From positions 1,764 to 65,763 of the forward strand of contig CABYVV010000002.1 in NCBI GenBank assembly GCA_902522465.1: a stretch of DNA of 64,000 nt, in the 5' to 3' direction. Made by a program: the position numbers and the translations under genes. Positions 26,919 to 64,000 of this stretch are shown in pieces. A model generated the notes under the pieces. The model saw only the letters and a program-made list of their open reading frames with translations, did no database searches and was not told the DNA's origin. Positions within the stretch are counted from its first letter, which is position 1. Every line of letters starts with the position of its first letter. Source of the DNA: an uncultured Alphaproteobacteria bacterium. Lineage in GTDB: Bacteria > Pseudomonadota > Alphaproteobacteria > Methylaequorales > Methylaequoraceae.

Positions 26919-27902
26919 CTATCCTCCAGTTGTATTCATATACCTTTTTTTTATATAACTCTTTTCATTAATATTGAAAAAATGTTTTTCAGGCTTGGTA
27001 TATATTAATTTTTGCAGAATTTTGATTAACTTTTTATCATCCTGTTCATTCAAGAATGGATTAAGATCTACAGAATTATTATCGCCGAGACATGGATATA
27101 TTATACCATTAGAAGTAACTCTAATCCTATTACATGTGCGGCAAAAATGGTTAGAAATTGGTGAAATGAAACCAATATGTGTGTCTAGACTCTTGCAATA
27201 ATAATAATTTGATGGACCGGGAGACTTTAGAGATGAGGGTTCTAATTTTAACTCTTTATTGATGATCTCTTTTGCATTTGAAACAGGAAGATATTGTTTA
27301 TTTCTTGATATTGGCACATCACCAATTGGCATAATTTCGATGAATGATAGTTTGAAGTTATGTTCCCCACACCATTTTACTAAATTTATAATTTCATCTT
27401 CATTAAAATTTTTAATCAAAACCGTATTTATTTTTACTTCAATTCCTTTTTTTTTTATAGAGAATATTCCCTCAAGTACTTTTTCTAAAAGTCCCCCATT
27501 AGTTATAAAGTTAAATTTTTCACTTATCAGTGAGTCTAATGAGACATTTATTCTTCTAACACCATACTTAAATAAACTCTCTGAATATTGACTTAGTTGT
27601 GTGCCATTGGTAGTTAAAAGCAATTCATCAATTTCGTTGTTAATTTTCTTTGATCCTAAAAATTTTATGTATTCAATTATATCTTTACGAATAAGAGGTT
27701 CACCTCCTGTTATTCTAATTTTTTTTATACCAAGTTTAATAAGCGCCTCAGATATCTTCTTTAAATTGGTGAGAGTTAAAATGTCTTTTTTTTTATAAAA
27801 AAAGGGATTGGTTTGAGGCATACAATATTTACATCTTAGATCACATCTGTCTGTAACAGATATTCTAACGTAATTAATTCTTCTTCCAAAACTATCTAAC
27901 AT
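26919..27902 (-). CDS. moaA: GTP 3',8-cyclase (molybdenum cofactor biosynthesis protein A)
   Basis: Radical SAM CDLRCKYC, a C-terminal auxiliary cluster CRTCNRIRVTSNGIIYPC, and a GG C-terminus. Confidence 0.92.
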   Translation of the reverse strand: MLDSFGRRINYVRISVTDRCDLRCKYCMPQTNPFFYKKKDILTLTNLKKISEALIKLGIKKIRITGGEPLIRKDIIEYIKFLGSKKINNEIDELLLTTNGTQLSQYSESLFKYGVRRINVSLDSLISEKFNFITNGGLLEKVLEGIFSIKKKGIEVKINTVLIKNFNEDEIINLVKWCGEHNFKLSFIEIMPIGDVPISRNKQYLPVSNAKEIINKELKLEPSSLKSPGPSNYYYCKSLDTHIGFISPISNHFCRTCNRIRVTSNGIIYPCLGDNNSVDLNPFLNEQDDKKLIKILQKLIYTKPEKHFFNINEKSYIKKRYMNTTGG

Positions 27903-55504: not shown

Positions 55505-56269
55505 ATGAAAGCTGTTATTCTAGCAGGCGGATTTGGAACTAGAATTTCTGAAGAGACCCATTTGAAACCAAAACCAATGATTGAAATTGGTGGAAAACCA
55601 ATAATTTGGCATATCATGAAACAATACTCGCAGCATGGTATAAATGATTTCATAATCTGTTGTGGATATAAAGGATATTTAATCAAAGAATACTTTTATA
55701 ATTATTCATTACATTTAACCGATATTACAATCAATACAAAAAATAATCAGACATGGTTTCATGACAACTATGCAGAAGACTGGAACGTAACACTTGTTGA
55801 TACTGGTGAAAATACAATGACTGGTGGAAGATTAAAAAGAATCTCAAGGTATTTGGACAATGAAGAGGATTTCTGCTTTACCTACGGAGACGGTATCGGT
55901 GATATAAATATTTCCAAAGCAATTAACGAACATAAAAAGAACGGAAAATTAGCTACAGTCACGGCAACTCAACCTCAAGGAAGGTTTGGTTCGCTTTCAT
56001 TAGATAAAGGTGAAATAAAAAGTTTCAAAGAAAAGCCAGCTGAGTGGATTAATGCAGGGTTTTTTGTGCTAAAAAAGAAAGTTATTGATAGAATTGATGG
56101 TGACAATTGTGCATGGGAAGAAAAACCCATGGAAAGTCTGGCATCTGAGGGTCAATTTTCGGTTTACTTTCACAATGGATTTTGGCAACCAATGGATACA
56201 TTAAGAGATAAAATTAAATTGGAAAAATTATGGAATAATGGTGACGCTCCCTGGAAAACATGGTCATGA
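55505..56269 (+). CDS. rfbF: Glucose-1-phosphate cytidylyltransferase
   Basis: MKAVILAGGFGTRISEETHLKPKPMIEIGGKPIIWHIM, and a C-terminal WQPMDTLRDK..LW..G.APWK. Confidence 0.92.
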   Translation: MKAVILAGGFGTRISEETHLKPKPMIEIGGKPIIWHIMKQYSQHGINDFIICCGYKGYLIKEYFYNYSLHLTDITINTKNNQTWFHDNYAEDWNVTLVDTGENTMTGGRLKRISRYLDNEEDFCFTYGDGIGDINISKAINEHKKNGKLATVTATQPQGRFGSLSLDKGEIKSFKEKPAEWINAGFFVLKKKVIDRIDGDNCAWEEKPMESLASEGQFSVYFHNGFWQPMDTLRDKIKLEKLWNNGDAPWKTWS

Positions 56270-57339
56270 AGAATTCCTTTTGGAATGGAAGAAGGGTTTT
56301 AATAACTGGTCACACTGGTTTTAAAGGTAGTTGGCTAACCTTATGGTTAAAAAATTTGGGAGCAAGTATTTGTGGTTATGCTTTAAAACCTGAATCTAAG
56401 AAATCTCTTTTTTACGAAGCAGATGTTTCGAAAGGTATAGAATCAAATTTTGCAAATATTCTTAATTATAAAGTTTTATGTGAAAAAATTCACAATTTTT
56501 CACCAGAAGTTGTTTTCCATCTTGCTGCCCAACCATTAGTGAAAAAGTCTTATCTATTTCCGCAAGATACTTTTTCAACTAACATTCATGGTACAATAAA
56601 TTTATTAGAATCATTAAGAGGCTGCAAAACAATAAGGTCAGTTGTTGTTGTAACAACAGATAAAGTTTATAAAAATAAAGAAAGCCAAGAGGGGTATAAA
56701 GAGACCGATACACTTGGTGGTTTTGATCCATATAGTAGCAGTAAAGCTTGTTGTGAAATTATAACAAATTGTTACAGATCTTCCTTTTTTAAAAACAAAA
56801 ATTTAAAAATTGGAATTGCCACCGCTAGAGCTGGGAATGTAATAGGTGGAGGCGATTATTCAGAGAATAGATTAGTACCGGATATATTTAGGTCAATAGA
56901 AGAAAAAAAAGCAATAAAAGTCAGAAATATAGGTTCTACCAGACCGTGGCAACATGTTTTGGAGGCATTAAATGGATATATAACTCTGGCAGAGTCACTT
57001 TATCATAATCATAAAAAATATTCTGAAGCCTGGAATTTTGGACCAAGATCTCAAGACTGTAGAAAAGTTAAATGGGTACTGAGTGAGTTTCAAAAAAAAC
57101 ATAATTTTGATATTATTGATATTTCTAATCATAGTAATGATTTTGAATCAAAAGCTCTAAATCTGGATATTTCTAAATCTCTTAAAAACCTAAGTTGGAA
57201 GCCATATTTACCAATTAATGAAGCAATACAACTTACTTCGCAATGGTTTAAACAAAAAGAAGGTGGAAGATTACCATCACAAATTATTAACGATCAAATA
57301 AATTATTATCAAGAAAAAATAAATGGTAATTTAAGTTAG
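56260..57339 (+). CDS. rfbG: CDP-glucose 4,6-dehydratase
   Basis: FWNGRRVLITGHTGFKGSWL, YSSSKACCE (YxxxK), and RPWQHVLE. Overlaps rfbF by 10 nt. Confidence 0.92.
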   Translation: MVMKNSFWNGRRVLITGHTGFKGSWLTLWLKNLGASICGYALKPESKKSLFYEADVSKGIESNFANILNYKVLCEKIHNFSPEVVFHLAAQPLVKKSYLFPQDTFSTNIHGTINLLESLRGCKTIRSVVVVTTDKVYKNKESQEGYKETDTLGGFDPYSSSKACCEIITNCYRSSFFKNKNLKIGIATARAGNVIGGGDYSENRLVPDIFRSIEEKKAIKVRNIGSTRPWQHVLEALNGYITLAESLYHNHKKYSEAWNFGPRSQDCRKVKWVLSEFQKKHNFDIIDISNHSNDFESKALNLDISKSLKNLSWKPYLPINEAIQLTSQWFKQKEGGRLPSQIINDQINYYQEKINGNLS

Positions 57340-57351
57340 TCTAACCTTAAG

Positions 57352-58446
57352 TTACTTAAGACTATTATAAAACTTAACAGTTTTCGTAATTGAACTCTCA
57401 AGAGATGTAAAAACTCTTAAGTTATTCTTTTTTGCTAAATTTATGTTAGGAACGTATGCAGTTGATAAAAATTGTGGTTTATTTTCAGTTAAAATCTGAA
57501 TATTTCTTTTAGTAATTTTTTTTACTAAACAAGCCACTTCATATAATGAATAAGCCTCATCTGATCCGACGTTTATGGTGAGAAATCTTTTTTCACATAT
57601 TAAAATTTTTAACAACCAAATAACAAGATCAGATGTATACATATAACTTCTAACTGAAGATCCATCGCTATGAATTACAATATCTGAATTCGTAGTTGCG
57701 GATTTTATAAAGTTACCTATTGCAAAGTGAGTGTCGATTGGAAGCCATGGGCCAACAAATGAAAAGCATCTGGCAATTTTAATCGTTTTTTCATTTTTTT
57801 CTGTTGCCCAATAATTACAAAGTAATTCTGCAGTTTTCTTAAAAATACCGCTGGCATCGTTAAAATTTGAGGAGTCCAAGTAAAATCCAGAACTTTCGAT
57901 AATTTTTGTAAAGTTTTTTGAAGGCTGTTTTCCATATACTGAACCTGAGGAAATATAAAGAATATTATTAATTTTTTTTTTATTAGCAAAATCTAAAATG
58001 TTTTTAGTACCCTTAATTATCACTTCCGATAAATTAAAAATATTTTGGTGTGCTTCAATGGTGGCTTCAGTAGCACCATGTATAATATGAGTAAAATCAT
58101 TTTCATTTGTCGAAAAATTAATAATATTTCCTTCAATAAAAAAAAGTTCTTTATAATTTCTTACCTCAGGAAACTTATTTATAAACCTAGTTGGATTTCT
58201 TGATAAAACAAAAATTTTGATATTTAAATTTAATGATACATTTAAATGTAAAAGGCTACTCAAAATAGACTTTCCAAAAAATCCTGTTCCCCCAGTTATC
58301 AATATTTTTGCATTTTTAAGCTTTACAATTGATGTTTTTAATTCAGATAGAACAAAATTTAAATCATCATTACAAATGTTAAAAATACTGGGTTTCTCAG
58401 GCTTCACAAAGATTAGTATGGCATTATAATTGCAGCAAATAAACAC
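57352..58446 (-). CDS. Extended-SDR (NAD-dependent epimerase/dehydratase/reductase fold) protein, atypical active site
   Basis: Rossmann ILITGGTGFFGKS and YISSGSVYG. Where YxxxK is expected I read SGIFK. The start may be the internal GTG at 58407 rather than GTG 58446. Confidence 0.65.
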   Translation of the reverse strand: MFICCNYNAILIFVKPEKPSIFNICNDDLNFVLSELKTSIVKLKNAKILITGGTGFFGKSILSSLLHLNVSLNLNIKIFVLSRNPTRFINKFPEVRNYKELFFIEGNIINFSTNENDFTHIIHGATEATIEAHQNIFNLSEVIIKGTKNILDFANKKKINNILYISSGSVYGKQPSKNFTKIIESSGFYLDSSNFNDASGIFKKTAELLCNYWATEKNEKTIKIARCFSFVGPWLPIDTHFAIGNFIKSATTNSDIVIHSDGSSVRSYMYTSDLVIWLLKILICEKRFLTINVGSDEAYSLYEVACLVKKITKRNIQILTENKPQFLSTAYVPNINLAKKNNLRVFTSLESSITKTVKFYNSLK

Positions 58447-58462
58447 TTTTTAAACAAATTAA

Positions 58463-60367
58463 ATGGACAAAATAAATTATAATCAAGAATCTCTAATAAA
58501 TAATTTGGAAGAAAAAAAATTTAAATTTAGAGAATTAAATTTTAAAAAAAAAAAAGATACTCTTTCATATCTTTTATTTGATTATCTTTCAAAAATTGGA
58601 ACAAAAGCTGTTTTTCTTGTTCCTGGAGGTGGAAATATGTTTCTTGTTGATGCAGTAGGAAGACATCCAGATATAAAATGTATTTGCACTCATAATGAAC
58701 AATCTGCTGTAATTGCTGCAGAAGCATATTCAAGACTCAATAAAGGGATAGGGGTTGCATTAGTAACAACTGGTCCAGGTGCTACCAATTCAGTAACAGG
58801 TATAGCAGGTTCATGGATTGATTCTATTCCTCTTTTAGTCATTTCGGGGCAGGTTAAAACTGATGATATTAATTTTGAAAAAAAACTGAGGCAAAAAGGT
58901 CCACAAGAAGTTGACATAGTTTCGATGGTTAAAGGTATAACCAAACATTCTGAAACAATTACAGATCACAAGAATTTTCTAAAAAAACTTAGCAAAATTA
59001 TAAATCTCTCAAAAAATGGAAGGCCAGGACCATGTTTGATAGATATACCTCTAGACATTCAATCTAAAAAGGTCAAGATACCTCTTGACTACAAATCTTT
59101 CCTAGAGAATGAAAAAATTGAAGTTAAAAAACAAATACCGGATGATTTAATTCATAAGATTATAAAATCAAAGAAACCACTTTTTTTGATGGGACATGGT
59201 ATTAAAAGTTCAAAATCAGAAAAATTAGCCATAGAATTGATAAAGCACTCAAATATTCCTGTATGTGTTACCTGGCCAATGATAGACCTTCTAGCATTTA
59301 ATGATCCTCTTTACGTAGGAAGACCTGGAGTAGTTGCAAAACGAAACGCTAATTTAACAATACAAAACTGCGATTTATTAATTAGTATTGGAGCAAGATT
59401 AGATAGAATTGTTACGGCTTTCAATTCAGATAATTTTGCAAAAAATGCAGAAATTTATTGTATTGATATTGACAAGGCTGAACTAAAGAAGCATCCAAAG
59501 AGATTTAATAAATTAAAATTTGATTGTAAATACTTCTTGTCAGATTTATTGATCAAGCTAAAGAATCACAAATATAATAATAACAATACAAAATGGATAA
59601 ATTTTTGTAAAAACCTCAAAACAAAGTATGGCAAAAGTGAATCGAGAAAAAAAAAGAGTATGAGTATTTATAATACTGTAAATTTTTTGTCAAAAATAAT
59701 ACCATCTGATAGTACCATTGTTACAGGAAGTTCTGGTTTATGTATTGAAGTTTTTTACACACATTTTGAAAATAAAAAGAATCAAAAAACATTTCTCACA
59801 ACAGGTTTAGGTTCAATGGGTTATGGATTTCCAGCTTTAGTTGGCGCTAGTTCACAAATTAAAAAAAAATTATTTTTATATGAAGGTGATGGAAGCGCGA
59901 TGATGAACCTTCAAGAGTTACAAACTTTAAAAACAAACAATTGTAAAGCAAAAATTTTTCTCATAAATAATCAAGGTTATGTATCTATAAGAAATACCCA
60001 AAAAAATTATTTTAAAGGAAGATTTATAGGAATTAACAAAAAATCTGGAATGGAGACCTCCTCTATATCAAAAATTGCTAAGGCAATCGGTATCAAATCA
60101 TATGTTATAAAGAAATATTCTGATTTTAATAAAATCAAAGAGACATTAAATAAGGATGAACTTATTATTTATGAAATTTTTGTAAATAAGGACGAAAAAT
60201 TAGTTCCTAAATGTTCAGCATACAAATTGGATAATGGGGCAATGGTTTCATCACCAATAGAGGATATGACACCTTTAATAGAGATTGAGGAATTAAAAAA
60301 ACTTATCCCAGGTCCAATTGATCAGAGATCATATTCAATGAGAGAGGTAAGAAATGAAACAACTTAA
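58463..60367 (+). CDS. Thiamine-diphosphate-dependent enzyme, acetolactate-synthase-large-subunit-like
   Basis: N-terminal PYR domain (LVPGGGNMFLVDA, HNEQSAVIAAEAYSR, TTGPGATNSVTGIA). C-terminal ThDP motif GDG-X24-NN (YEGDGSAMMNLQELQTLKTNNCKAKIFLINNQGY). Confidence 0.8.
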   Translation: MDKINYNQESLINNLEEKKFKFRELNFKKKKDTLSYLLFDYLSKIGTKAVFLVPGGGNMFLVDAVGRHPDIKCICTHNEQSAVIAAEAYSRLNKGIGVALVTTGPGATNSVTGIAGSWIDSIPLLVISGQVKTDDINFEKKLRQKGPQEVDIVSMVKGITKHSETITDHKNFLKKLSKIINLSKNGRPGPCLIDIPLDIQSKKVKIPLDYKSFLENEKIEVKKQIPDDLIHKIIKSKKPLFLMGHGIKSSKSEKLAIELIKHSNIPVCVTWPMIDLLAFNDPLYVGRPGVVAKRNANLTIQNCDLLISIGARLDRIVTAFNSDNFAKNAEIYCIDIDKAELKKHPKRFNKLKFDCKYFLSDLLIKLKNHKYNNNNTKWINFCKNLKTKYGKSESRKKKSMSIYNTVNFLSKIIPSDSTIVTGSSGLCIEVFYTHFENKKNQKTFLTTGLGSMGYGFPALVGASSQIKKKLFLYEGDGSAMMNLQELQTLKTNNCKAKIFLINNQGYVSIRNTQKNYFKGRFIGINKKSGMETSSISKIAKAIGIKSYVIKKYSDFNKIKETLNKDELIIYEIFVNKDEKLVPKCSAYKLDNGAMVSSPIEDMTPLIEIEELKKLIPGPIDQRSYSMREVRNETT

Positions 60368-61253
60368 TCAAAACTTTAATAATCTACCTAAGGATAGAAT
60401 TGCGGAATTTTGTATTTGTTGTGGATCGAAAAAATTAAAAAATAGTCCTGCAGTTTTAATGCCTTTTGTGGCTGAACGAGTCTTCAATTGGAGGCAAATT
60501 AAAATAGATAAAACCTGGGGACTTAAAACAATAAAAAACGGTCAGACATATTCTATATGTAACACGTTATTATGTAATGAATGTAATTTTTTATTTTTAG
60601 ATATTAGATTTTCAGACAGAGAACTTTCAAATCTTTATACTAACTACAGAGGTGTTAAGTATACTAAACTCAGAGAGAAACACGAAAAGGATTATAAAAA
60701 AAGAAATAAAGATTTAATTAAAGGCATAACTTATTTAGACGATGTAGAGAAATTTATTTCGAAAAACATAAAATTACCAGCATCTATATTAGATTGGGGA
60801 GGTGATACTGGAAAAAATACACCTTTTAAAAATCATAGTAAAAAAATTCATATTTATGATTTAGGAAACTCAAACACTGTAAGAGGGACAAAAAAAATAA
60901 GTAAAATAGATTTAAAAAATAGAAAATATGAATTAGTTATATGTAGTAATGTGCTTGAACATGTTTCTTATCCATCTGAGACACTTTTCGATATAAAAAA
61001 ACATATGAGTTTAAAATCATTACTTTATATTGAACTTCCTTATGAAAAACTGATTATGGAAATTGAAGATAAAAAAAAAACATACAAAGATAAGAGACAT
61101 TGGCATGAGCACGTGAATTTTTTTTCAAAAAAATCAATATTAAAATTATTAAAAAAATGTAAACTTAAAATAATTGATTTTAGAAAACTTGATGTGCCTG
61201 AAGGAAATTTCTCACTTATGCAAATTATTTGTAGAAAGGATTTAGACCAATAA
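60354..61253 (+). CDS. SAM-dependent methyltransferase with an N-terminal four-Cys zinc-ribbon
   Basis: CICCGS...CNTLLCNECNF, then ..LSNLYTNY.., then a class I MTase core (ILDWGGDTG, VICSNVLEHV). Overlaps the upstream ThDP gene by 14 nt. Confidence 0.65.
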   Translation: MKQLNQNFNNLPKDRIAEFCICCGSKKLKNSPAVLMPFVAERVFNWRQIKIDKTWGLKTIKNGQTYSICNTLLCNECNFLFLDIRFSDRELSNLYTNYRGVKYTKLREKHEKDYKKRNKDLIKGITYLDDVEKFISKNIKLPASILDWGGDTGKNTPFKNHSKKIHIYDLGNSNTVRGTKKISKIDLKNRKYELVICSNVLEHVSYPSETLFDIKKHMSLKSLLYIELPYEKLIMEIEDKKKTYKDKRHWHEHVNFFSKKSILKLLKKCKLKIIDFRKLDVPEGNFSLMQIICRKDLDQ

Positions 61254-61257
61254 ATCA

Positions 61258-62724
61258 ATGAGACCTCGAAGAATTTATAGGACACCGACAACAGTAGATC
61301 TAGAAATTACAGATATTTGTAATGAAAAATGCGTCTATTGTTTTAATTTTGATAGGGATCTTTCAATGGGATCCCTGAAACTTGATAAAGAAAAAATAGA
61401 TCATTTAGTCAGACAATTTGTAAATTTTGAAGTTTTTCACGTTATATCGTCTGGTGGGGAAGCCTTTGCTAACTTTGAAATGCTATTGTATCTTAATGAA
61501 AAGCTCAAAGAAAATAATATTTCAACTTCAATTAACAGTAATCTTTCCATTAAAGCAAAGAGAATAGAGAGGTTACAAAGATTATTTGACTCCGGATGTG
61601 ATCACATTTTAACAAGTTTACCTTCCTATCTATCTGATGTAACAAATAAGCTAGTTAACAGTAAAAATGCATTTGATAGAATAACAAGTGGAATTGAAGA
61701 TGCTGTGAAAATAGGATTTAGGGTTAGTGCTAATATGGTTGTACATAATTCTAATAAAAATCAAGTTTATTTGACGGCGAAACTTGCCAGTGAATTGGGA
61801 TGTCAGAGAGTTTTTGCTACACGAATTGTTGGTCCTGATTACGAAACTGAGGTAGATTATGATAATACAAATGATGAAAATCCTAATATATTATCAAAAA
61901 AATCAGCATTAGAGTGTTTGGATCAACTTATAAAAGCTAGAGACGAATTTGGAATTGATGTTAGCACTATAGTAAGCTATCCACTTTGTTTGCTCGGTGA
62001 TCTCCAAAGGTATGCAGACTTTGTAGGAAGAGGTTGTCCAACTCAAAGAGGTCATAGATTAAATATCCTGCCTAATGGAGACATTAGATCGTGTGTACAT
62101 CTTTCGTCAGAAAGGTTGGGGAATGTCTTTAATGATGAAATTGATTTATCTGAGCAGTATAAAAAACTTAGAAACTGGCATGATGGATCATTAGCTTTTA
62201 ATGAATGTAGAAAATGTGATTATAAGTATGTATGTAATAGTGGGTGTAGGGTTGACGCTAAGGCTTATTCGGGCAAACTAAATGGAAAAGATCCGTTGAT
62301 GGTTGGTCCGATTATTAACGGAAAGATTCATGGTAAATCACTTAGGAATTTTGTTCCATTTAAAATTACCTACGACAAAAAAACAAGAGAAATTATACAA
62401 ACGAGTGATTTTATAGTTAATGAAGGGGCTAGATTTAGATATGAAGATAATTTTTATTTATGTAGCGTTAAATATGGAAATATAATTGAAATTGATTATG
62501 ATGTTGCAAAATTTCTTATAGAGAAACAAAAGTCAAATCTTTCATTCAATCTAACAGAATTTGGTGAAGCAAGAATTCAAATTATGATTGATTACTTCTG
62601 TAAAGATTTAATTAGAAGTGTTGACAACAAATTGAATGAAATGAGAAATAAAAATTTATTAAAAAAAGGCCTTGGCATTGACCCCAATAATCTTCCAGAA
62701 TATGACCAATTTATTTTTAAGTAA
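61258..62724 (+). CDS. Radical SAM / SPASM-domain enzyme with a ~135-aa C-terminal extension
   Basis: CX3CX2C (ITDICNEKCVYCF) and the full SPASM signature: CX13GX4C (CPTQRGHRLNILPNGDIRSC), then CX2CX5CX3C (CRKCDYKYVCNSGC). Starts 4 nt after the methyltransferase stop. Confidence 0.85.
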   Translation: MRPRRIYRTPTTVDLEITDICNEKCVYCFNFDRDLSMGSLKLDKEKIDHLVRQFVNFEVFHVISSGGEAFANFEMLLYLNEKLKENNISTSINSNLSIKAKRIERLQRLFDSGCDHILTSLPSYLSDVTNKLVNSKNAFDRITSGIEDAVKIGFRVSANMVVHNSNKNQVYLTAKLASELGCQRVFATRIVGPDYETEVDYDNTNDENPNILSKKSALECLDQLIKARDEFGIDVSTIVSYPLCLLGDLQRYADFVGRGCPTQRGHRLNILPNGDIRSCVHLSSERLGNVFNDEIDLSEQYKKLRNWHDGSLAFNECRKCDYKYVCNSGCRVDAKAYSGKLNGKDPLMVGPIINGKIHGKSLRNFVPFKITYDKKTREIIQTSDFIVNEGARFRYEDNFYLCSVKYGNIIEIDYDVAKFLIEKQKSNLSFNLTEFGEARIQIMIDYFCKDLIRSVDNKLNEMRNKNLLKKGLGIDPNNLPEYDQFIFK

Positions 62725-62729
62725 TTTAT

Positions 62730-64000
62730 TTATATAACACCTTTAATTCTAATTGTTGGATCACTTAAGTTCTCAAAAGTTTTTTTATACTTGGAAGATA
62801 CAATTGAGCTTTGAAAAATTTTTGCAGCTTCACTGTAAATACTGTTATCCCAATATTCAAACAAAGGAAAAGGAAAAGTTTTAGGTATTTCTTCCATATA
62901 GAAATTCATAAATTTAAGTGCATTATTTTGTTTAAAATTAGGCAAAGTGAATTTTTTATTTTTAATAAAAAAGTTAATTTTTTTAAAATAATCTGTCGAA
63001 CTTTTTGGATCATATTGAATATTTTTACCCCACGCAGCGCCCTTTCCACCAGAAACTACTGGTTTTTTCTTTACAACCATTTCCCAACCTATGTCTGAAG
63101 AATACACTAAACCTAAATCAGCTATATCTATTAAACCATATGTATTTATTGATGTTTGACTTGGTAGTATAACAAAATTGTCTGCAAGCTTATCAAAATA
63201 ATTATTGATATATCTTTCACATGACATGTTACAATTTGTTAATTTTTCGGCTGGATGAGGTCTAATAATAATATTACAGTTCTTTTTTGGAATTAAAAAT
63301 TCTATTGTTTTTTTTAACCAATCAAAATGAGATTGGAATAAGTAATTTGTTTTTCTAGTTAGAACAGTTGTATCAAATGAGAGATTAGTAAGAATTAAGA
63401 TTGTGTAGGAGTCTTTTTTTAGAAATAATTTTTTATAAATTATTTCTTTTTTTAGGGGATCTTCGGAGTGAAAATTTAAGAAGACATTTTTTTTATAAAA
63501 TTTCTTTTTTGAAACTCTATCAATCGTAAAATAAGATTTACGAATTTTATTGTTTCTCATTCTCTTCCAAGCTTCATCAATATTTAAATTATTAAAAGGA
63601 GTATTTTTTGAAATTATAATACTGTTTTTGTCATTCCTGTATCCGTAACAAGTTATAGTTTTATTTAGTTCCTTAAGAATTGAAAATGCCACGCCGTATT
63701 CTGCCCATGATCCACTATCAATTATATGATTATCAAATCTATTTCTTTTGATAAATGATTTAAATTTAACAGCAAAATTCAAATTTCTTTTTTGAATTTT
63801 CTCAAATATCTTTTTATTTTTGTTATTTTTTTCATAAAGAGGATTTTTCAGAATTCTCTGAATATCCTCTTCAGTCTGACGATAAATTTCCTTTTTTAAT
63901 TTTACAGAAATATATAGATTCTTGTCAGTAAAATCTTTTTTGTATTCAACATTAATTTCATTATTCTTTATAACTTTGAGTAATGATGAAAACGTTCTTT
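62730..64000 (-). CDS. Capsule-biosynthesis (KpsC/KpsS-like, PF05159-type) putative glycosyltransferase, 5' end outside the window
   Basis: I hand-translated the frame and it stays open from the track's TTG (63782) to the window edge (..RTFSSLLKVIKNNEINVEYKK..KIQKRNLNFAVKF..), so the CDS is partial. Motifs TILILTNLSFDTTVL, IIRPHPAEK and LVYSSDIGWEMVVKKKPVV resemble KpsC/S-type enzymes by eye. Confidence 0.5.
   Translation of the reverse strand, partial: RTFSSLLKVIKNNEINVEYKKDFTDKNLYISVKLKKEIYRQTEEDIQRILKNPLYEKNNKNKKIFEKIQKRNLNFAVKFKSFIKRNRFDNHIIDSGSWAEYGVAFSILKELNKTITCYGYRNDKNSIIISKNTPFNNLNIDEAWKRMRNNKIRKSYFTIDRVSKKKFYKKNVFLNFHSEDPLKKEIIYKKLFLKKDSYTILILTNLSFDTTVLTRKTNYLFQSHFDWLKKTIEFLIPKKNCNIIIRPHPAEKLTNCNMSCERYINNYFDKLADNFVILPSQTSINTYGLIDIADLGLVYSSDIGWEMVVKKKPVVSGGKGAAWGKNIQYDPKSSTDYFKKINFFIKNKKFTLPNFKQNNALKFMNFYMEEIPKTFPFPLFEYWDNSIYSEAAKIFQSSIVSSKYKKTFENLSDPTIRIKGVI

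What the first reader, a model, noticed from the sequence alone, without database searches (positions are those of the whole stretch)
61258..62724. Radical-SAM/SPASM enzyme with an uncharacterised C-terminal domain that looks PqqD/RRE-like, and no visible precursor peptide
**Seen in the sequence.** The protein has a canonical CX3CX2C (C21/C25/C28) and a complete SPASM signature: CX13GX4C ... CX2CX5CX3C. That implies two auxiliary Fe-S clusters. After SPASM come about 135 more residues.

**The C-terminal segment.** The stretch ..ARFRYEDNFYLCSVKYGNIIEIDYDVAKFLIEKQKSNLSFNLTEFGEARIQIMIDYFCKDLIRS.. has the beta-beta-beta-helix-helix-helix rhythm of PqqD-like RiPP recognition elements. It also has landmark positions of those elements: ..g....LN.ta..i..l....s...l......v..fl..L....li. 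This is a by-eye comparison with K. pneumoniae PqqD.

**Interpretation.** SPASM enzymes mostly modify peptides or proteins, as with the sulfatase maturase AnSME, PqqE and sactisynthases. A peptide-binding domain would imply that this glycan island also encodes a peptide or protein modification, possibly working with the TPR-glycosyltransferase 6 kb upstream. No obvious precursor ORF is adjacent: the next gene is convergent and only 5 nt away. A sugar substrate, in line with the CDP-sugar hypothesis, is equally possible.
Basis: partly seen in the sequence, partly recalled or inferred. Interest (0 to 1): 0.7.

Follow-up and report, generated by a model that had tools for sequence, protein, structure and literature searches.

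The report
Radical-SAM enzyme of sialic-acid-like sugar clusters
This is an intact radical-SAM/SPASM enzyme whose extra C-terminal domain is predicted to fold like a peptide-recognition (RRE) module. In 54 of 61 species its relatives sit beside genes that make sialic-acid-like nine-carbon sugars, so it most likely tailors such a sugar rather than a peptide, by a reaction nobody has described.

Summary
**Observation.** It holds. ORF 61258-62724(+) encodes a 488-aa radical-SAM/SPASM protein with CX3CX2C at C21/C25/C28. Seven SPASM cysteines are invariant in 35 homologues. After SPASM comes a conserved ~100-residue domain.

**C-terminal domain.**
- Its best Foldseek matches are RREs (TbiB1, McbB, PbtF), but none is significant (E >= 0.1).
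- Sequence methods find no PqqD relationship: Pfam gives no hit, hhalign gives 0.7% probability, and an HMM search of 1.84 billion proteins returns only this family.

**Genomic context.**
- The conserved partners argue against a peptide substrate. 54 of 61 species-level loci carry a NeuB-like synthase and/or a CMP-ulosonate cytidylyltransferase within 10 kb (39 of 40 loci with full flanks). 33 of 61 carry a TylF-type methyltransferase.
- In this lineage those genes lie just beyond the window's end.
- The CDP-glucose genes upstream are shared only by the three closest relatives.
- No precursor-like small ORF is conserved.

**Verdict.** This is an uncharacterised SPASM family that most likely does radical tailoring of a (CMP-)nonulosonic acid, with the RRE-like domain acting as a substrate-binding lid. 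The chemistry is unknown. It is a new variant of a known kind.

The parts
61258..62724 (+). Whole gene: 488-aa radical-SAM/SPASM enzyme with a family-specific C-terminal domain
   Evidence: ORF. Pfam Radical_SAM E 9.7e-20. TIGR04085 SPASM scores 48.6 bits, above the cut-off of 27, and no equivalog model is reached. More than 260 homologues, most of them full length. AF2 model has pLDDT 86.9 and pTM 0.88.
61318..61341 (+). CX3CX2C motif (C21, C25, C28) that binds the SAM-cleaving [4Fe-4S] cluster
   Evidence: Positions. Invariant in alignment A1. The GGE motif G66-G67-E68 is also invariant.
61987..62301 (+). SPASM region, residues 244-348. Seven invariant cysteines (C244, C260, C279, C317, C320, C326, C330) for two auxiliary Fe-S clusters. 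The eighth ligand is not Cys: D345 is invariant, and M348 sits at the PqqE Cys position.
62410..62619 (+). [quoted passage not shown] The invariant R392-F393-R394 lies on the first core strand (nt 62431-62439), and the invariant K449 follows helix 3.
   Evidence: Secondary structure and pLDDT. Foldseek best hits are RREs with E 0.1-1. Conservation. The domain is found only in this family among 1.84e9 proteins.
58463..60367 (+). First gene of the apparent operon: a ThDP-dependent acetolactate-synthase-like enzyme. It is a lineage-specific neighbour, not conserved with the family.
   Evidence: All three TPP_enzyme domains are present. Best NCBIfam score is 335 bits, below every cut-off. It overlaps the next gene by 14 nt. 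The best promoter-like site, 58403-58430, lies upstream. Strong homologues occur in only 3 of 61 loci.
60354..61253 (+). Second gene of the operon: a class I SAM methyltransferase (Methyltransf_23). It ends 4 nt before the radical-SAM start.
   Evidence: Homologues in only 3 of 61 loci.
62730..64000 (-). Convergent neighbour: the 3' 402 codons of a ~496-aa Capsule_synth (KpsS/KpsC)-like glycosyltransferase, cut by the window end. In collinear relatives it heads the operon GT-TylF-NeuB-(CMP-transferase/phosphatase)-RfbH.
   Evidence: tblastn to the L006 protein gives 73% identity over residues 95-496, and the frame is open to the window end. PF05159 hit has E 2e-8 for a family member and 0.024 for the L006 copy. 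Gene order in L006.

Best explanation
**What it is.** The gene encodes a functional radical-SAM/SPASM enzyme of an uncharacterised family. Its conserved role is radical tailoring of a sialic-acid-like (nonulosonic or ulosonic) sugar: the free acid, its phosphate, or most plausibly the CMP-activated form. It does not modify a peptide.

**Proposed mechanism.**
- Shown from sequence: the C21/C25/C28 cluster is the site that would cleave SAM to a 5'-deoxyadenosyl radical.
- Inferred: this radical abstracts a hydrogen from a sugar carbon.
- Inferred: the two SPASM clusters then take the electron from the substrate radical. One of them has an Asp345 ligand or an open site.
- Inferred: the net result is an oxidation of an alcohol to a ketone, as in anSME or BtrN. 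Epimerisation, dehydration or decarboxylation cannot be excluded.
- Inferred: the C-terminal RRE-fold domain is docked on the barrel as a substrate lid. Its invariant Arg392, Arg394 and Lys449, together with the invariant core Arg33, Arg155, Arg189 and Arg258, hold the anionic carboxylate and phosphate of the sugar.
- Inferred: in about half of the loci a TylF-type O-methyltransferase acts on the same sugar.

**In this SAR11-type island.** The enzyme is transcribed with a ThDP enzyme and a methyltransferase. It faces the operon that makes and transfers the ulosonic acid.
For: **An intact, constrained enzyme.** All cluster cysteines and the GGE motif are invariant. The AF2 model is confident (pLDDT 86.9, pTM 0.88). 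The core matches the SPASM enzymes SuiB, SkfB, PqqE and anSME at E ~1e-12.

**Context in one genome per species.**
- Of 61 loci whose homologue carries the C-terminal domain, 54 have NeuB and/or CTP_transf_3 within 10 kb. 43 have both, and 33 have TylF.
- Among the 40 loci with at least 5 kb on both sides, 39 have NeuB and/or CTP_transf_3.
- The same-strand neighbour within 150 nt is TylF in 18 loci, the CMP-transferase in 12 and NeuB in 6.
- The loci span Pelagibacterales, Rhodospirillales, Campylobacterales, Desulfobacterales, Nitrospinota, Planctomycetota, Chloroflexota, Prochlorococcus and a Thermoplasmata archaeon.
- Eight independent metagenome or genome contexts show the same pattern.

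**Other recurrent neighbours are nonulosonic-acid pathway genes.** They include NeuC-type 2-epimerase, DegT aminotransferases, WbuX amidotransferase with HisH/HisF-like partners, a CBS-nucleotidyltransferase, and BFO_1060-like and Capsule_synth-like transferases.

**Negative control.** Eleven relatives that lack the C-terminal domain have none of these neighbours.

**This lineage.** The window is collinear at 85% nucleotide identity with L006/L013. There, TylF, NeuB-like (271 bits), a PseF-like cytidylyltransferase fused to a KDN-9-P-phosphatase-like domain, and RfbH follow directly.

**Hints of an anionic small-molecule substrate.** Seven invariant Arg/Lys residues are spread over core and C-terminal domain. 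The C-terminal domain is nearly as conserved as the core (0.56 against 0.62). Leader-specific RREs are described as sequence-divergent (PMC12710340).
Against: - No biochemical or genetic datum exists for any member. Eight literature searches found nothing.
- Gene neighbourhood does not identify the substrate or the reaction.
- The partner genes are not inside the window. Their presence here is inferred from relatives whose enzymes are 89-94% identical.
- In the window the gene is co-transcribed with genes of a different, CDP-hexose-type module.
- The best structural matches of the C-terminal domain are peptide-binding RREs.
- I could not read model coordinates, so the position of Arg392, Arg394 and Lys449 relative to the active site is untested.
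- One fully flanked locus (L052, Prochlorococcus) has no NeuB or CTP_transf_3 within 10 kb.
Confidence: 0.55

Rival explanations
1. It belongs to the CDP-hexose pathway encoded immediately upstream: RfbF, RfbG, an SDR and a YerE-like ThDP enzyme, with RfbH downstream. It would act on a CDP-linked 3,6-dideoxy or C-branched hexose, for example by radical epimerisation, oxidation or rearrangement, or by supplying electrons to the E1 dehydrase RfbH in place of the missing E3 reductase.
For: - Operon structure in the window: the ThDP enzyme overlaps the methyltransferase by 14 nt, and the methyltransferase ends 4 nt before the radical-SAM start.
- RfbF scores 426 bits (cut-off 300) and RfbG scores 450 bits (cut-off 278) just upstream.
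- RfbH scores 703 bits (cut-off 423) in the collinear relative.
- No E3-like reductase is seen within 10 kb of L006.
- Sugar-nucleotide-modifying radical-SAM enzymes exist. DesII and BlsE are among the structural and sequence matches.
Against: - Strong homologues of RfbF, RfbG, the ThDP enzyme and the methyltransferase occur in only 2-3 of 61 loci, all of them the closest relatives. NeuB or the CMP-transferase occur in 54 of 61.
- A family conserved at 38-45% identity across phyla without these genes cannot depend on them.
Confidence: 0.15
2. One reading: a RiPP- or protein-modifying SPASM maturase. Its C-terminal RRE binds a leader peptide, or a segment of a protein such as a glycoprotein acceptor, encoded elsewhere.
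For: [quoted passage not shown] TbiB1 gives probability 0.98 and TM 0.59 relative to the target, followed by McbB, PbtF, TbtB, MibB and MccB.
- Most characterised SPASM enzymes act on peptides (established knowledge). The closest sequence-level structure is PqqE at E 5e-11.
Against: - No Foldseek hit has E <= 1e-3.
- No PqqD similarity is found by Pfam, by hhalign (0.7%) or by an HMM search of 1.84e9 proteins.
- No small ORF is conserved next to the gene except an XRE-type HTH in 6 of 61 loci. The window has no intergenic room for one.
- The neighbours are sugar genes, not peptidases, transporters or precursors.
- The invariant charged motif is atypical of leader-specific RREs.
Confidence: 0.1
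3. The C-terminal winged-helix domain is only a structural cap or a partner-docking module, for example for the TylF methyltransferase or the CMP-transferase. It would have no ligand-recognition role, and the enzyme's substrate would be unrelated to the neighbouring genes.
For: - High pTM (0.88) suggests the domain is rigidly packed on the core.
- The domain never occurs on its own or in other architectures.
- The gene abuts or overlaps TylF or the CMP-transferase in 30 loci.
Against: - Invariant Arg-Phe-Arg and Lys across phyla are more than a cap needs.
- Relatives without the domain lose the sugar context entirely, which links the domain to the pathway.
Confidence: 0.1

Closest known systems
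PqqE (radical-SAM/SPASM C-C crosslinking enzyme of PQQ biosynthesis; PDB 6C8V)
   Same: It is the best sequence match among solved structures (E 5e-11 over residues 9-348) and the best NCBIfam model. Both have a radical-SAM barrel plus SPASM. In both, one auxiliary cluster is not ligated by four cysteines (Asp in PqqE from established knowledge; here D345 is invariant and the last Cys is missing).
   Different: It scores 65 bits against an equivalog cut-off of 381. No pqqA-D genes are nearby. PqqE uses a separate or N-terminal PqqD, whereas here the RRE-like domain is C-terminal and shows no PqqD sequence signal. The context is sugar genes.
anSME (anaerobic sulfatase-maturating enzyme; PDB 4K36-4K39) and BtrN (2-deoxy-scyllo-inosamine dehydrogenase)
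   Same: anSME has the highest TM-score among PDB hits (0.53 relative to the query, 0.68 relative to the target). Both use auxiliary clusters as electron acceptors in radical dehydrogenation (established knowledge). That is the chemistry proposed here, and BtrN shows it can be applied to a carbohydrate.
   Different: The anSME model scores 33 bits against a cut-off of 349. No sulfatase is nearby. anSME has eight Cys ligands and no C-terminal winged-helix domain.
Sugar- and nucleoside-sugar-modifying radical-SAM enzymes BlsE (cytosylglucuronate decarboxylase, 7VOB) and DesII (8HZV)
   Same: They act on nucleotide- or nucleobase-linked sugars. BlsE acts on a sugar acid. Both appear among the matches: BlsE by sequence at E 3e-4, and by Foldseek at 3e-11 for both.
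   Different: Similarity is limited to the common barrel (residues 16-183 for BlsE). Identity is 15-16%. Neither has a full SPASM domain with this Cys pattern or the C-terminal domain.
RiPP recognition elements (PqqD-like, PF05402; e.g. TbiB1 5V1V, PbtF 8T19, McbB 6GRI)
   Same: Same order of secondary-structure elements and similar size. They are the top Foldseek matches of the isolated domain.
   Different: No significant structural E-value and no sequence or profile similarity. The domain is C-terminal to SPASM rather than N-terminal or stand-alone. It carries an invariant RFR...K signature and has no cognate peptide.

Membership tests
Radical SAM superfamily (PF04055) | CX3CX2C cluster motif and SAM-binding GGE motif in a partial TIM barrel | tested here: met
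   C21/C25/C28 and G66-G67-E68 are invariant. Pfam E 9.7e-20, 71.8 bits against a cut-off of 29.5. Barrel matches radical-SAM structures at E ~1e-12.
SPASM subfamily (TIGR04085 / PF13186) | Domain model above cut-off | tested here: met
   TIGR04085 scores 48.6 bits against a cut-off of 27, residues 263-344. PF13186 is precomputed on many homologues.
SPASM subfamily (TIGR04085 / PF13186) | Seven-cysteine motif CX9-15GX4C ... CX2CX5CX3C ... C, giving two fully Cys-ligated auxiliary clusters | tested here: inconclusive
   C260-X13-G-X4-C279 and C317-X2-C320-X5-C326-X3-C330 are present, plus an upstream C244, all invariant. The final downstream Cys is absent. M348 aligns with the PqqE Cys, and D345 is invariant. 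Cluster number and ligation need spectroscopy.
PqqD / RiPP recognition element | Sequence membership (PF05402 or profile similarity to PqqD) | tested here: not met
   No PF05402 hit in 28 members at E <= 10. hhalign against a PqqD alignment gives probability 0.7%. The domain HMM finds no PqqD among 1.84e9 proteins.
PqqD / RiPP recognition element | [quoted passage not shown] | tested here: met
   Met on predicted models only. Strands are 392-395, 399-403 and 409-413. Helices are 414-426, 432-435 and 437-448, with pLDDT around 90. Foldseek top hits are RREs but with E 0.1-1.
PqqD / RiPP recognition element | A cognate precursor peptide whose leader it binds | tested here: not met
   No conserved small ORF within 3 kb in 61 loci except an XRE-type HTH in 6. 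No room in the window. Binding itself is not testable here.
PqqE (TIGR02109) | Equivalog score and pqqABCD neighbourhood | tested here: not met
   65.1 bits against a cut-off of 381. Neighbours are sugar genes.
Anaerobic sulfatase maturase (TIGR03942) | Equivalog score and a sulfatase substrate gene | tested here: not met
   33.1 bits against a cut-off of 349. No sulfatase domain in the nine neighbouring proteins scanned.
Nonulosonic-acid biosynthesis cluster (accessory enzyme) | Co-location with a NeuB-type synthase and a CMP-ulosonate cytidylyltransferase | tested here: met
   54 of 61 loci, and 39 of 40 with full flanks. In this lineage they are shown in collinear L006, L011, L012 and L013. 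Not inside the window itself.
Nonulosonic-acid biosynthesis cluster (accessory enzyme) | Catalytic action on a nonulosonic acid or its CMP derivative | not testable with these tools
   Needs anaerobic reconstitution and product analysis.

The most novel reading that the evidence does not exclude
An RRE-type fold, so far known only as a peptide-leader clamp, has been recruited here as the recognition module for an anionic sugar nucleotide (a CMP-nonulosonate). The SPASM enzyme carrying it performs a radical modification of sialic-acid-like sugars that has no described precedent. The product would be a new class of nonulosonic acids on the surface of SAR11, Prochlorococcus and many other environmental bacteria.
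Probability: 0.3. Interest if true: 0.8.

Novelty: new variant of a known kind. Interest (0 to 1): 0.6.

Why it matters
- **A gap in sugar biochemistry.** Nonulosonic acids (sialic, legionaminic and pseudaminic acids) shape phage, grazer and host recognition of bacterial surfaces. In the literature I could search, no radical-SAM enzyme has been placed in their biosynthesis. A conserved SPASM enzyme in these clusters across more than ten phyla points to an undescribed sugar modification. The carriers include SAR11 and Prochlorococcus, the most abundant marine bacteria.
- **A caution for genome mining.** RRE-like folds are used as class-independent markers of peptide natural products. A well-conserved RRE-fold domain in a non-peptide pathway would be a source of false positives, and an example of fold recruitment.
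- **Testability.** The hypothesis is easy to test, because the putative substrates can be made with the neighbouring enzymes.

Tried and rejected
- **Sequence route to PqqD.** A Pfam scan of 28 C-terminal domains found no PF05402. An HMM of the domain against PDB sequences gave 0 hits at E <= 10. hhalign against a PqqD alignment gave 0.7%. That PqqD alignment was built from a Klebsiella PqqD I recalled from memory, after checking it against PDB 5SXY and 3G2B. It is shallow (8 sequences, mostly enterobacterial), which limits this one test.
- **Other architectures of the domain.** None were found. All 104 representatives are this family or fragments of it.
- **Precursor-peptide hunt.** The only conserved small ORF is an XRE-like regulator.
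- **anSME and PqqE membership.** Rejected on scores and context.
- **Plasmid and phage collections.** No family member was found. The single plasmid hit is a true pqqE.
- **Exact-protein look-up.** I tried to see the window's own downstream DNA, but the protein is not on record. I relied on collinear relatives instead.
- **Literature.** Eight searches on radical SAM with nonulosonic, legionaminic or pseudaminic acid, NeuB, nucleotide sugars, SAR11 islands, and the Methanococcus 5-O-methyl-hexosulose genes found nothing on this family.
- **Model coordinates.** I could not obtain them, so the orientation of Arg392, Arg394 and Lys449 toward the active site could not be measured. Too few sequences were available for coevolution analysis.
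Full report
**1. What is in the sequence**

The ORF at 61258-62724(+) is intact, starts with ATG and encodes 488 aa. It begins 4 nt after the stop of a Methyltransf_23 gene (60354-61253). That gene overlaps a ThDP-dependent acetolactate-synthase-like gene (58463-60367) by 14 nt. The best promoter-like site of the region lies just upstream of the ThDP gene, although such sites are no more frequent here than in shuffled sequence. The three genes therefore look like one operon. Five nucleotides after the stop, a convergent gene begins.

Base composition is about 28-30% G+C throughout. The nearest relatives are single-cell genomes and MAGs of SAR11-type Alphaproteobacteria, at 89-94% protein identity.

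**2. Check of the observation**

- Pfam Radical_SAM gives E 9.7e-20. The NCBIfam SPASM domain model scores 48.6 bits against a cut-off of 27.
A further upstream cysteine, C244, is also present.
- All ten cysteines, and the SAM-binding G66-G67-E68, are invariant in an alignment of 35 homologues down to 38% identity.
- One detail differs from 'complete SPASM'. No cysteine follows the CX2CX5CX3C block. In the alignment with PqqE (6C8V), the position of PqqE's last cluster cysteine is M348, which is variable. The only invariant residue nearby is D345. One auxiliary cluster therefore probably has an Asp ligand or an open iron site. This is inference and needs spectroscopy.
- None of the 61 NCBIfam models hit comes near its cut-off. 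The best is PqqE at 65 bits against 381, and anSME scores 33 against 349. The family has no curated name.

**3. The C-terminal domain**

Homologues cover 92-100% of the query, so the extension belongs to the family. Conservation is nearly as high as in the core: mean top-residue frequency is 0.56 for residues 380-455 against 0.62 for residues 1-350. R392, F393, R394, K449 and G471 are invariant.

AlphaFold2 with the 35-sequence alignment gives a confident model (pLDDT 86.9, pTM 0.88). After the SPASM region it shows strands 392-395, 399-403 and 409-413, followed by helices 414-426, 432-435 and 437-448. The isolated domain folds the same way. [quoted passage not shown] (PMC12710340).

Foldseek of the isolated domain against the PDB gives no match at E <= 1e-3. 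The head of the list, however, is dominated by RREs:
- TbiB1 (E 0.11, probability 0.98, TM 0.59 relative to the target)
- McbB
- PbtF RRE (TM 0.57)
- TbtB, MibB and MccB

The same paper warns of about 75% false positives when Foldseek is used on such short domains.

Sequence methods see nothing:
- No PF05402 hit in any of 28 members.
- No PDB sequence hit for the domain profile at E <= 10.
- hhalign against a PqqD alignment gives 0.7% probability, out of register.
- An HMM search of 1.84 billion representative proteins returns only 104 entries, all of them this family or contig-edge fragments of it.

The 'landmark residues' are not supported. The domain is a private invention of this family, placed C-terminal to SPASM, whereas in SuiB or CteB the RRE is N-terminal and in PQQ biosynthesis PqqD is a separate protein (established knowledge).

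**4. What the neighbours say**

I took 74 loci from one-genome-per-species contigs. I searched their six-frame ORFs with HMMs built from NeuB, CTP_transf_3 and TylF genes that had been identified by precomputed Pfam hits in metagenome contigs.

Among the 61 loci whose homologue carries the C-terminal domain:

| Neighbour within 10 kb | Loci (of 61) |
|---|---|
| NeuB-type synthase and/or CMP-ulosonate cytidylyltransferase | 54 |
| Both of the above | 43 |
| TylF-type methyltransferase | 33 |
| All three | 30 |

- Among the 40 loci with at least 5 kb on both sides, 39 are positive.
- A same-strand TylF lies within 150 nt in 18 loci, the cytidylyltransferase in 12 and NeuB in 6.

Clustering all neighbouring ORFs shows further recurrent genes typical of legionaminic- or pseudaminic-type pathways and their transferases:
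- B12-radical-SAM enzymes (19 loci)
- SDR dehydratases or epimerases (19)
- BFO_1060-like glycosyltransferases (15)
- DegT aminotransferases (14)
- NeuC-type 2-epimerases (14)
- WbuX amidotransferase (10) with HisH/HisF-like partners
- Capsule_synth-like glycosyltransferases (9)

Eleven more distant relatives from CPR bacteria, Woesearchaeota and Lachnospiraceae lack the C-terminal domain, and none has these neighbours. The two apparent exceptions, L066 and L081, are genes cut by contig ends. The domain and the sugar context thus travel together.

**5. Why the window does not show this**

The window contains no NeuB, CTP_transf_3 or TylF gene. It is, however, collinear at 83-86% nucleotide identity with L006/L013, L011 and L012 right up to its last base.

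In those contigs the convergent gene is a ~496-aa Capsule_synth-like glycosyltransferase. The window holds its last 402 codons. It is followed by:
- TylF
- a NeuB-like synthase (TIGR03569, 271 bits, below cut-off)
- a PseF-like cytidylyltransferase fused to a KdsC/KDN-9-phosphate-phosphatase-like domain
- RfbH (703 bits against a cut-off of 423)
- a GT2

The radical-SAM gene therefore sits at the junction of two modules.

The upstream module is RfbF (426 bits against 300), RfbG (450 against 278), an SDR, the ThDP enzyme and the methyltransferase. It resembles a CDP-3,6-dideoxy or C-branched hexose route; YerE of yersiniose biosynthesis is the analogy, from my own knowledge. Strong homologues of these genes occur in only 2-3 of the 61 loci, all of them the closest relatives.

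**6. Precursor peptide**

Within 3 kb of the gene in 61 loci plus the window, only one small ORF family is conserved across loci. It is a 78-100-aa protein abutting the radical-SAM start in 6 loci. It has weak but consistent XRE/Cro-type HTH matches and is probably a regulator. It is absent from the window. Nothing resembles a RiPP precursor.

**7. Interpretation**

- The best-supported reading is a radical-SAM/SPASM tailoring enzyme of nonulosonic or ulosonic-acid biosynthesis. Confidence is 0.55 for the pathway assignment and lower for the chemistry.
- Shown: an intact catalytic apparatus, a constrained C-terminal domain, and a family-wide association with NeuB, the CMP-transferase and TylF.
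- Inferred: the substrate is the sugar acid or its CMP ester.
- Inferred: the seven invariant Arg/Lys residues (R33, R155, R189, R258, R392, R394, K449) bind its carboxylate and phosphate.
- Inferred: the two auxiliary clusters serve as an electron sink for a dehydrogenation like those of anSME or BtrN. Epimerisation, dehydration and decarboxylation are the alternatives.
- The loci contain different pathway flavours: diamino Leg/Pse-type with WbuX, and non-amino Kdn-type with a phosphatase. The modified position should therefore lie in the part common to all nonulosonic acids. This too is inference.

**8. Rivals**

- CDP-hexose pathway enzyme (0.15). It is favoured by the local operon and disfavoured by the family-wide context.
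- Peptide or protein maturase with a true RRE (0.10). It is favoured by the fold. It is disfavoured by the lack of sequence signal, of a precursor and of RiPP-type neighbours.
- C-terminal domain as a mere cap or docking module (0.10).

**9. Comparison with the known, and novelty**

The protein is a member of the radical-SAM superfamily and of the SPASM group. It is not a member of the PqqE, anSME, BtrN, BlsE, DesII or PqqD families.

No paper in the searchable library links a radical-SAM enzyme to nonulosonic-acid clusters. No homologue occurs in the annotated plasmid or phage collections.

I rate it a new variant of a known kind: a known catalytic scaffold with a new domain architecture and a new pathway context. 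Interest is 0.6. It is a concrete, testable lead for both radical-SAM enzymology and bacterial glycobiology, and it is present in very abundant marine bacteria. No function has been shown, and the RRE resemblance rests on predicted structures with non-significant scores.

Noticed in passing
window 55505-60367; L006 15697-17016: RfbF (426 bits), RfbG (450 bits), an SDR and an acetolactate-synthase-like ThDP enzyme that reaches no ALS cut-off lie in the window. RfbH (703 bits) lies just past the window end in collinear relatives. Together they look like a CDP-3,6-dideoxyhexose route with a YerE-like C-branching step (analogy from memory). No E3/RfbI-type reductase is visible within 10 kb.
   Followed up: partly
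window 62730-64000 (-): The convergent gene is cut by the window end. It is the last 402 codons of a ~496-aa Capsule_synth (KpsS/KpsC)-like glycosyltransferase, a candidate ulosonic-acid transferase. Pfam found nothing for the 350-aa fragment listed by the ORF tool.
   Followed up: partly
L020 1823-2113, L024 9762-9998, L032 5050-5301, L035 1612-1920, L053 9693-10001, L068 9762-9998: A conserved 78-100-aa XRE/Cro-type HTH protein (motif QIRMARAALRWxVDDL...WARIQ) abuts or overlaps the start of the radical-SAM gene in 6 of 61 loci. It is probably a cluster regulator. It is absent from the window.
   Followed up: partly
L072, L074-L080, L082-L084: More distant relatives of the enzyme (22-33% identity) in CPR bacteria, Woesearchaeota and Lachnospiraceae lack the C-terminal domain and have no NeuB or CMP-transferase neighbours. 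Their contexts were not examined further.
   Followed up: no
window 26922-27902 (-): A second radical-SAM gene in the window matches the family HMM only through the common core (56 bits). It looks MoaA-like by its N-terminal sequence and was not examined.
   Followed up: no
window 60354-61253 (+): The Methyltransf_23 protein upstream has an N-terminal Cys-rich stretch (CICCGS ... CNTLLCNEC) that resembles a zinc ribbon, ahead of the methyltransferase fold (residues 130-272).
   Followed up: no
L001 2383-6735, L009 9427-14149, L004 16782-20334: Several homologous clusters combine an HldE-like kinase/nucleotidyltransferase fusion, two SDRs and a split transketolase with the NeuB gene. This hints at unusual, possibly chain-extended, precursors for the ulosonic acid.
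   Followed up: no
P0016; P0046: One metagenomic homologue (P0016) is annotated with a fused sulfotransferase domain (PF00685). Another (P0046) comes from a eukaryote transcriptome set (Anaeramoeba) and is probably of symbiont origin.
   Followed up: no
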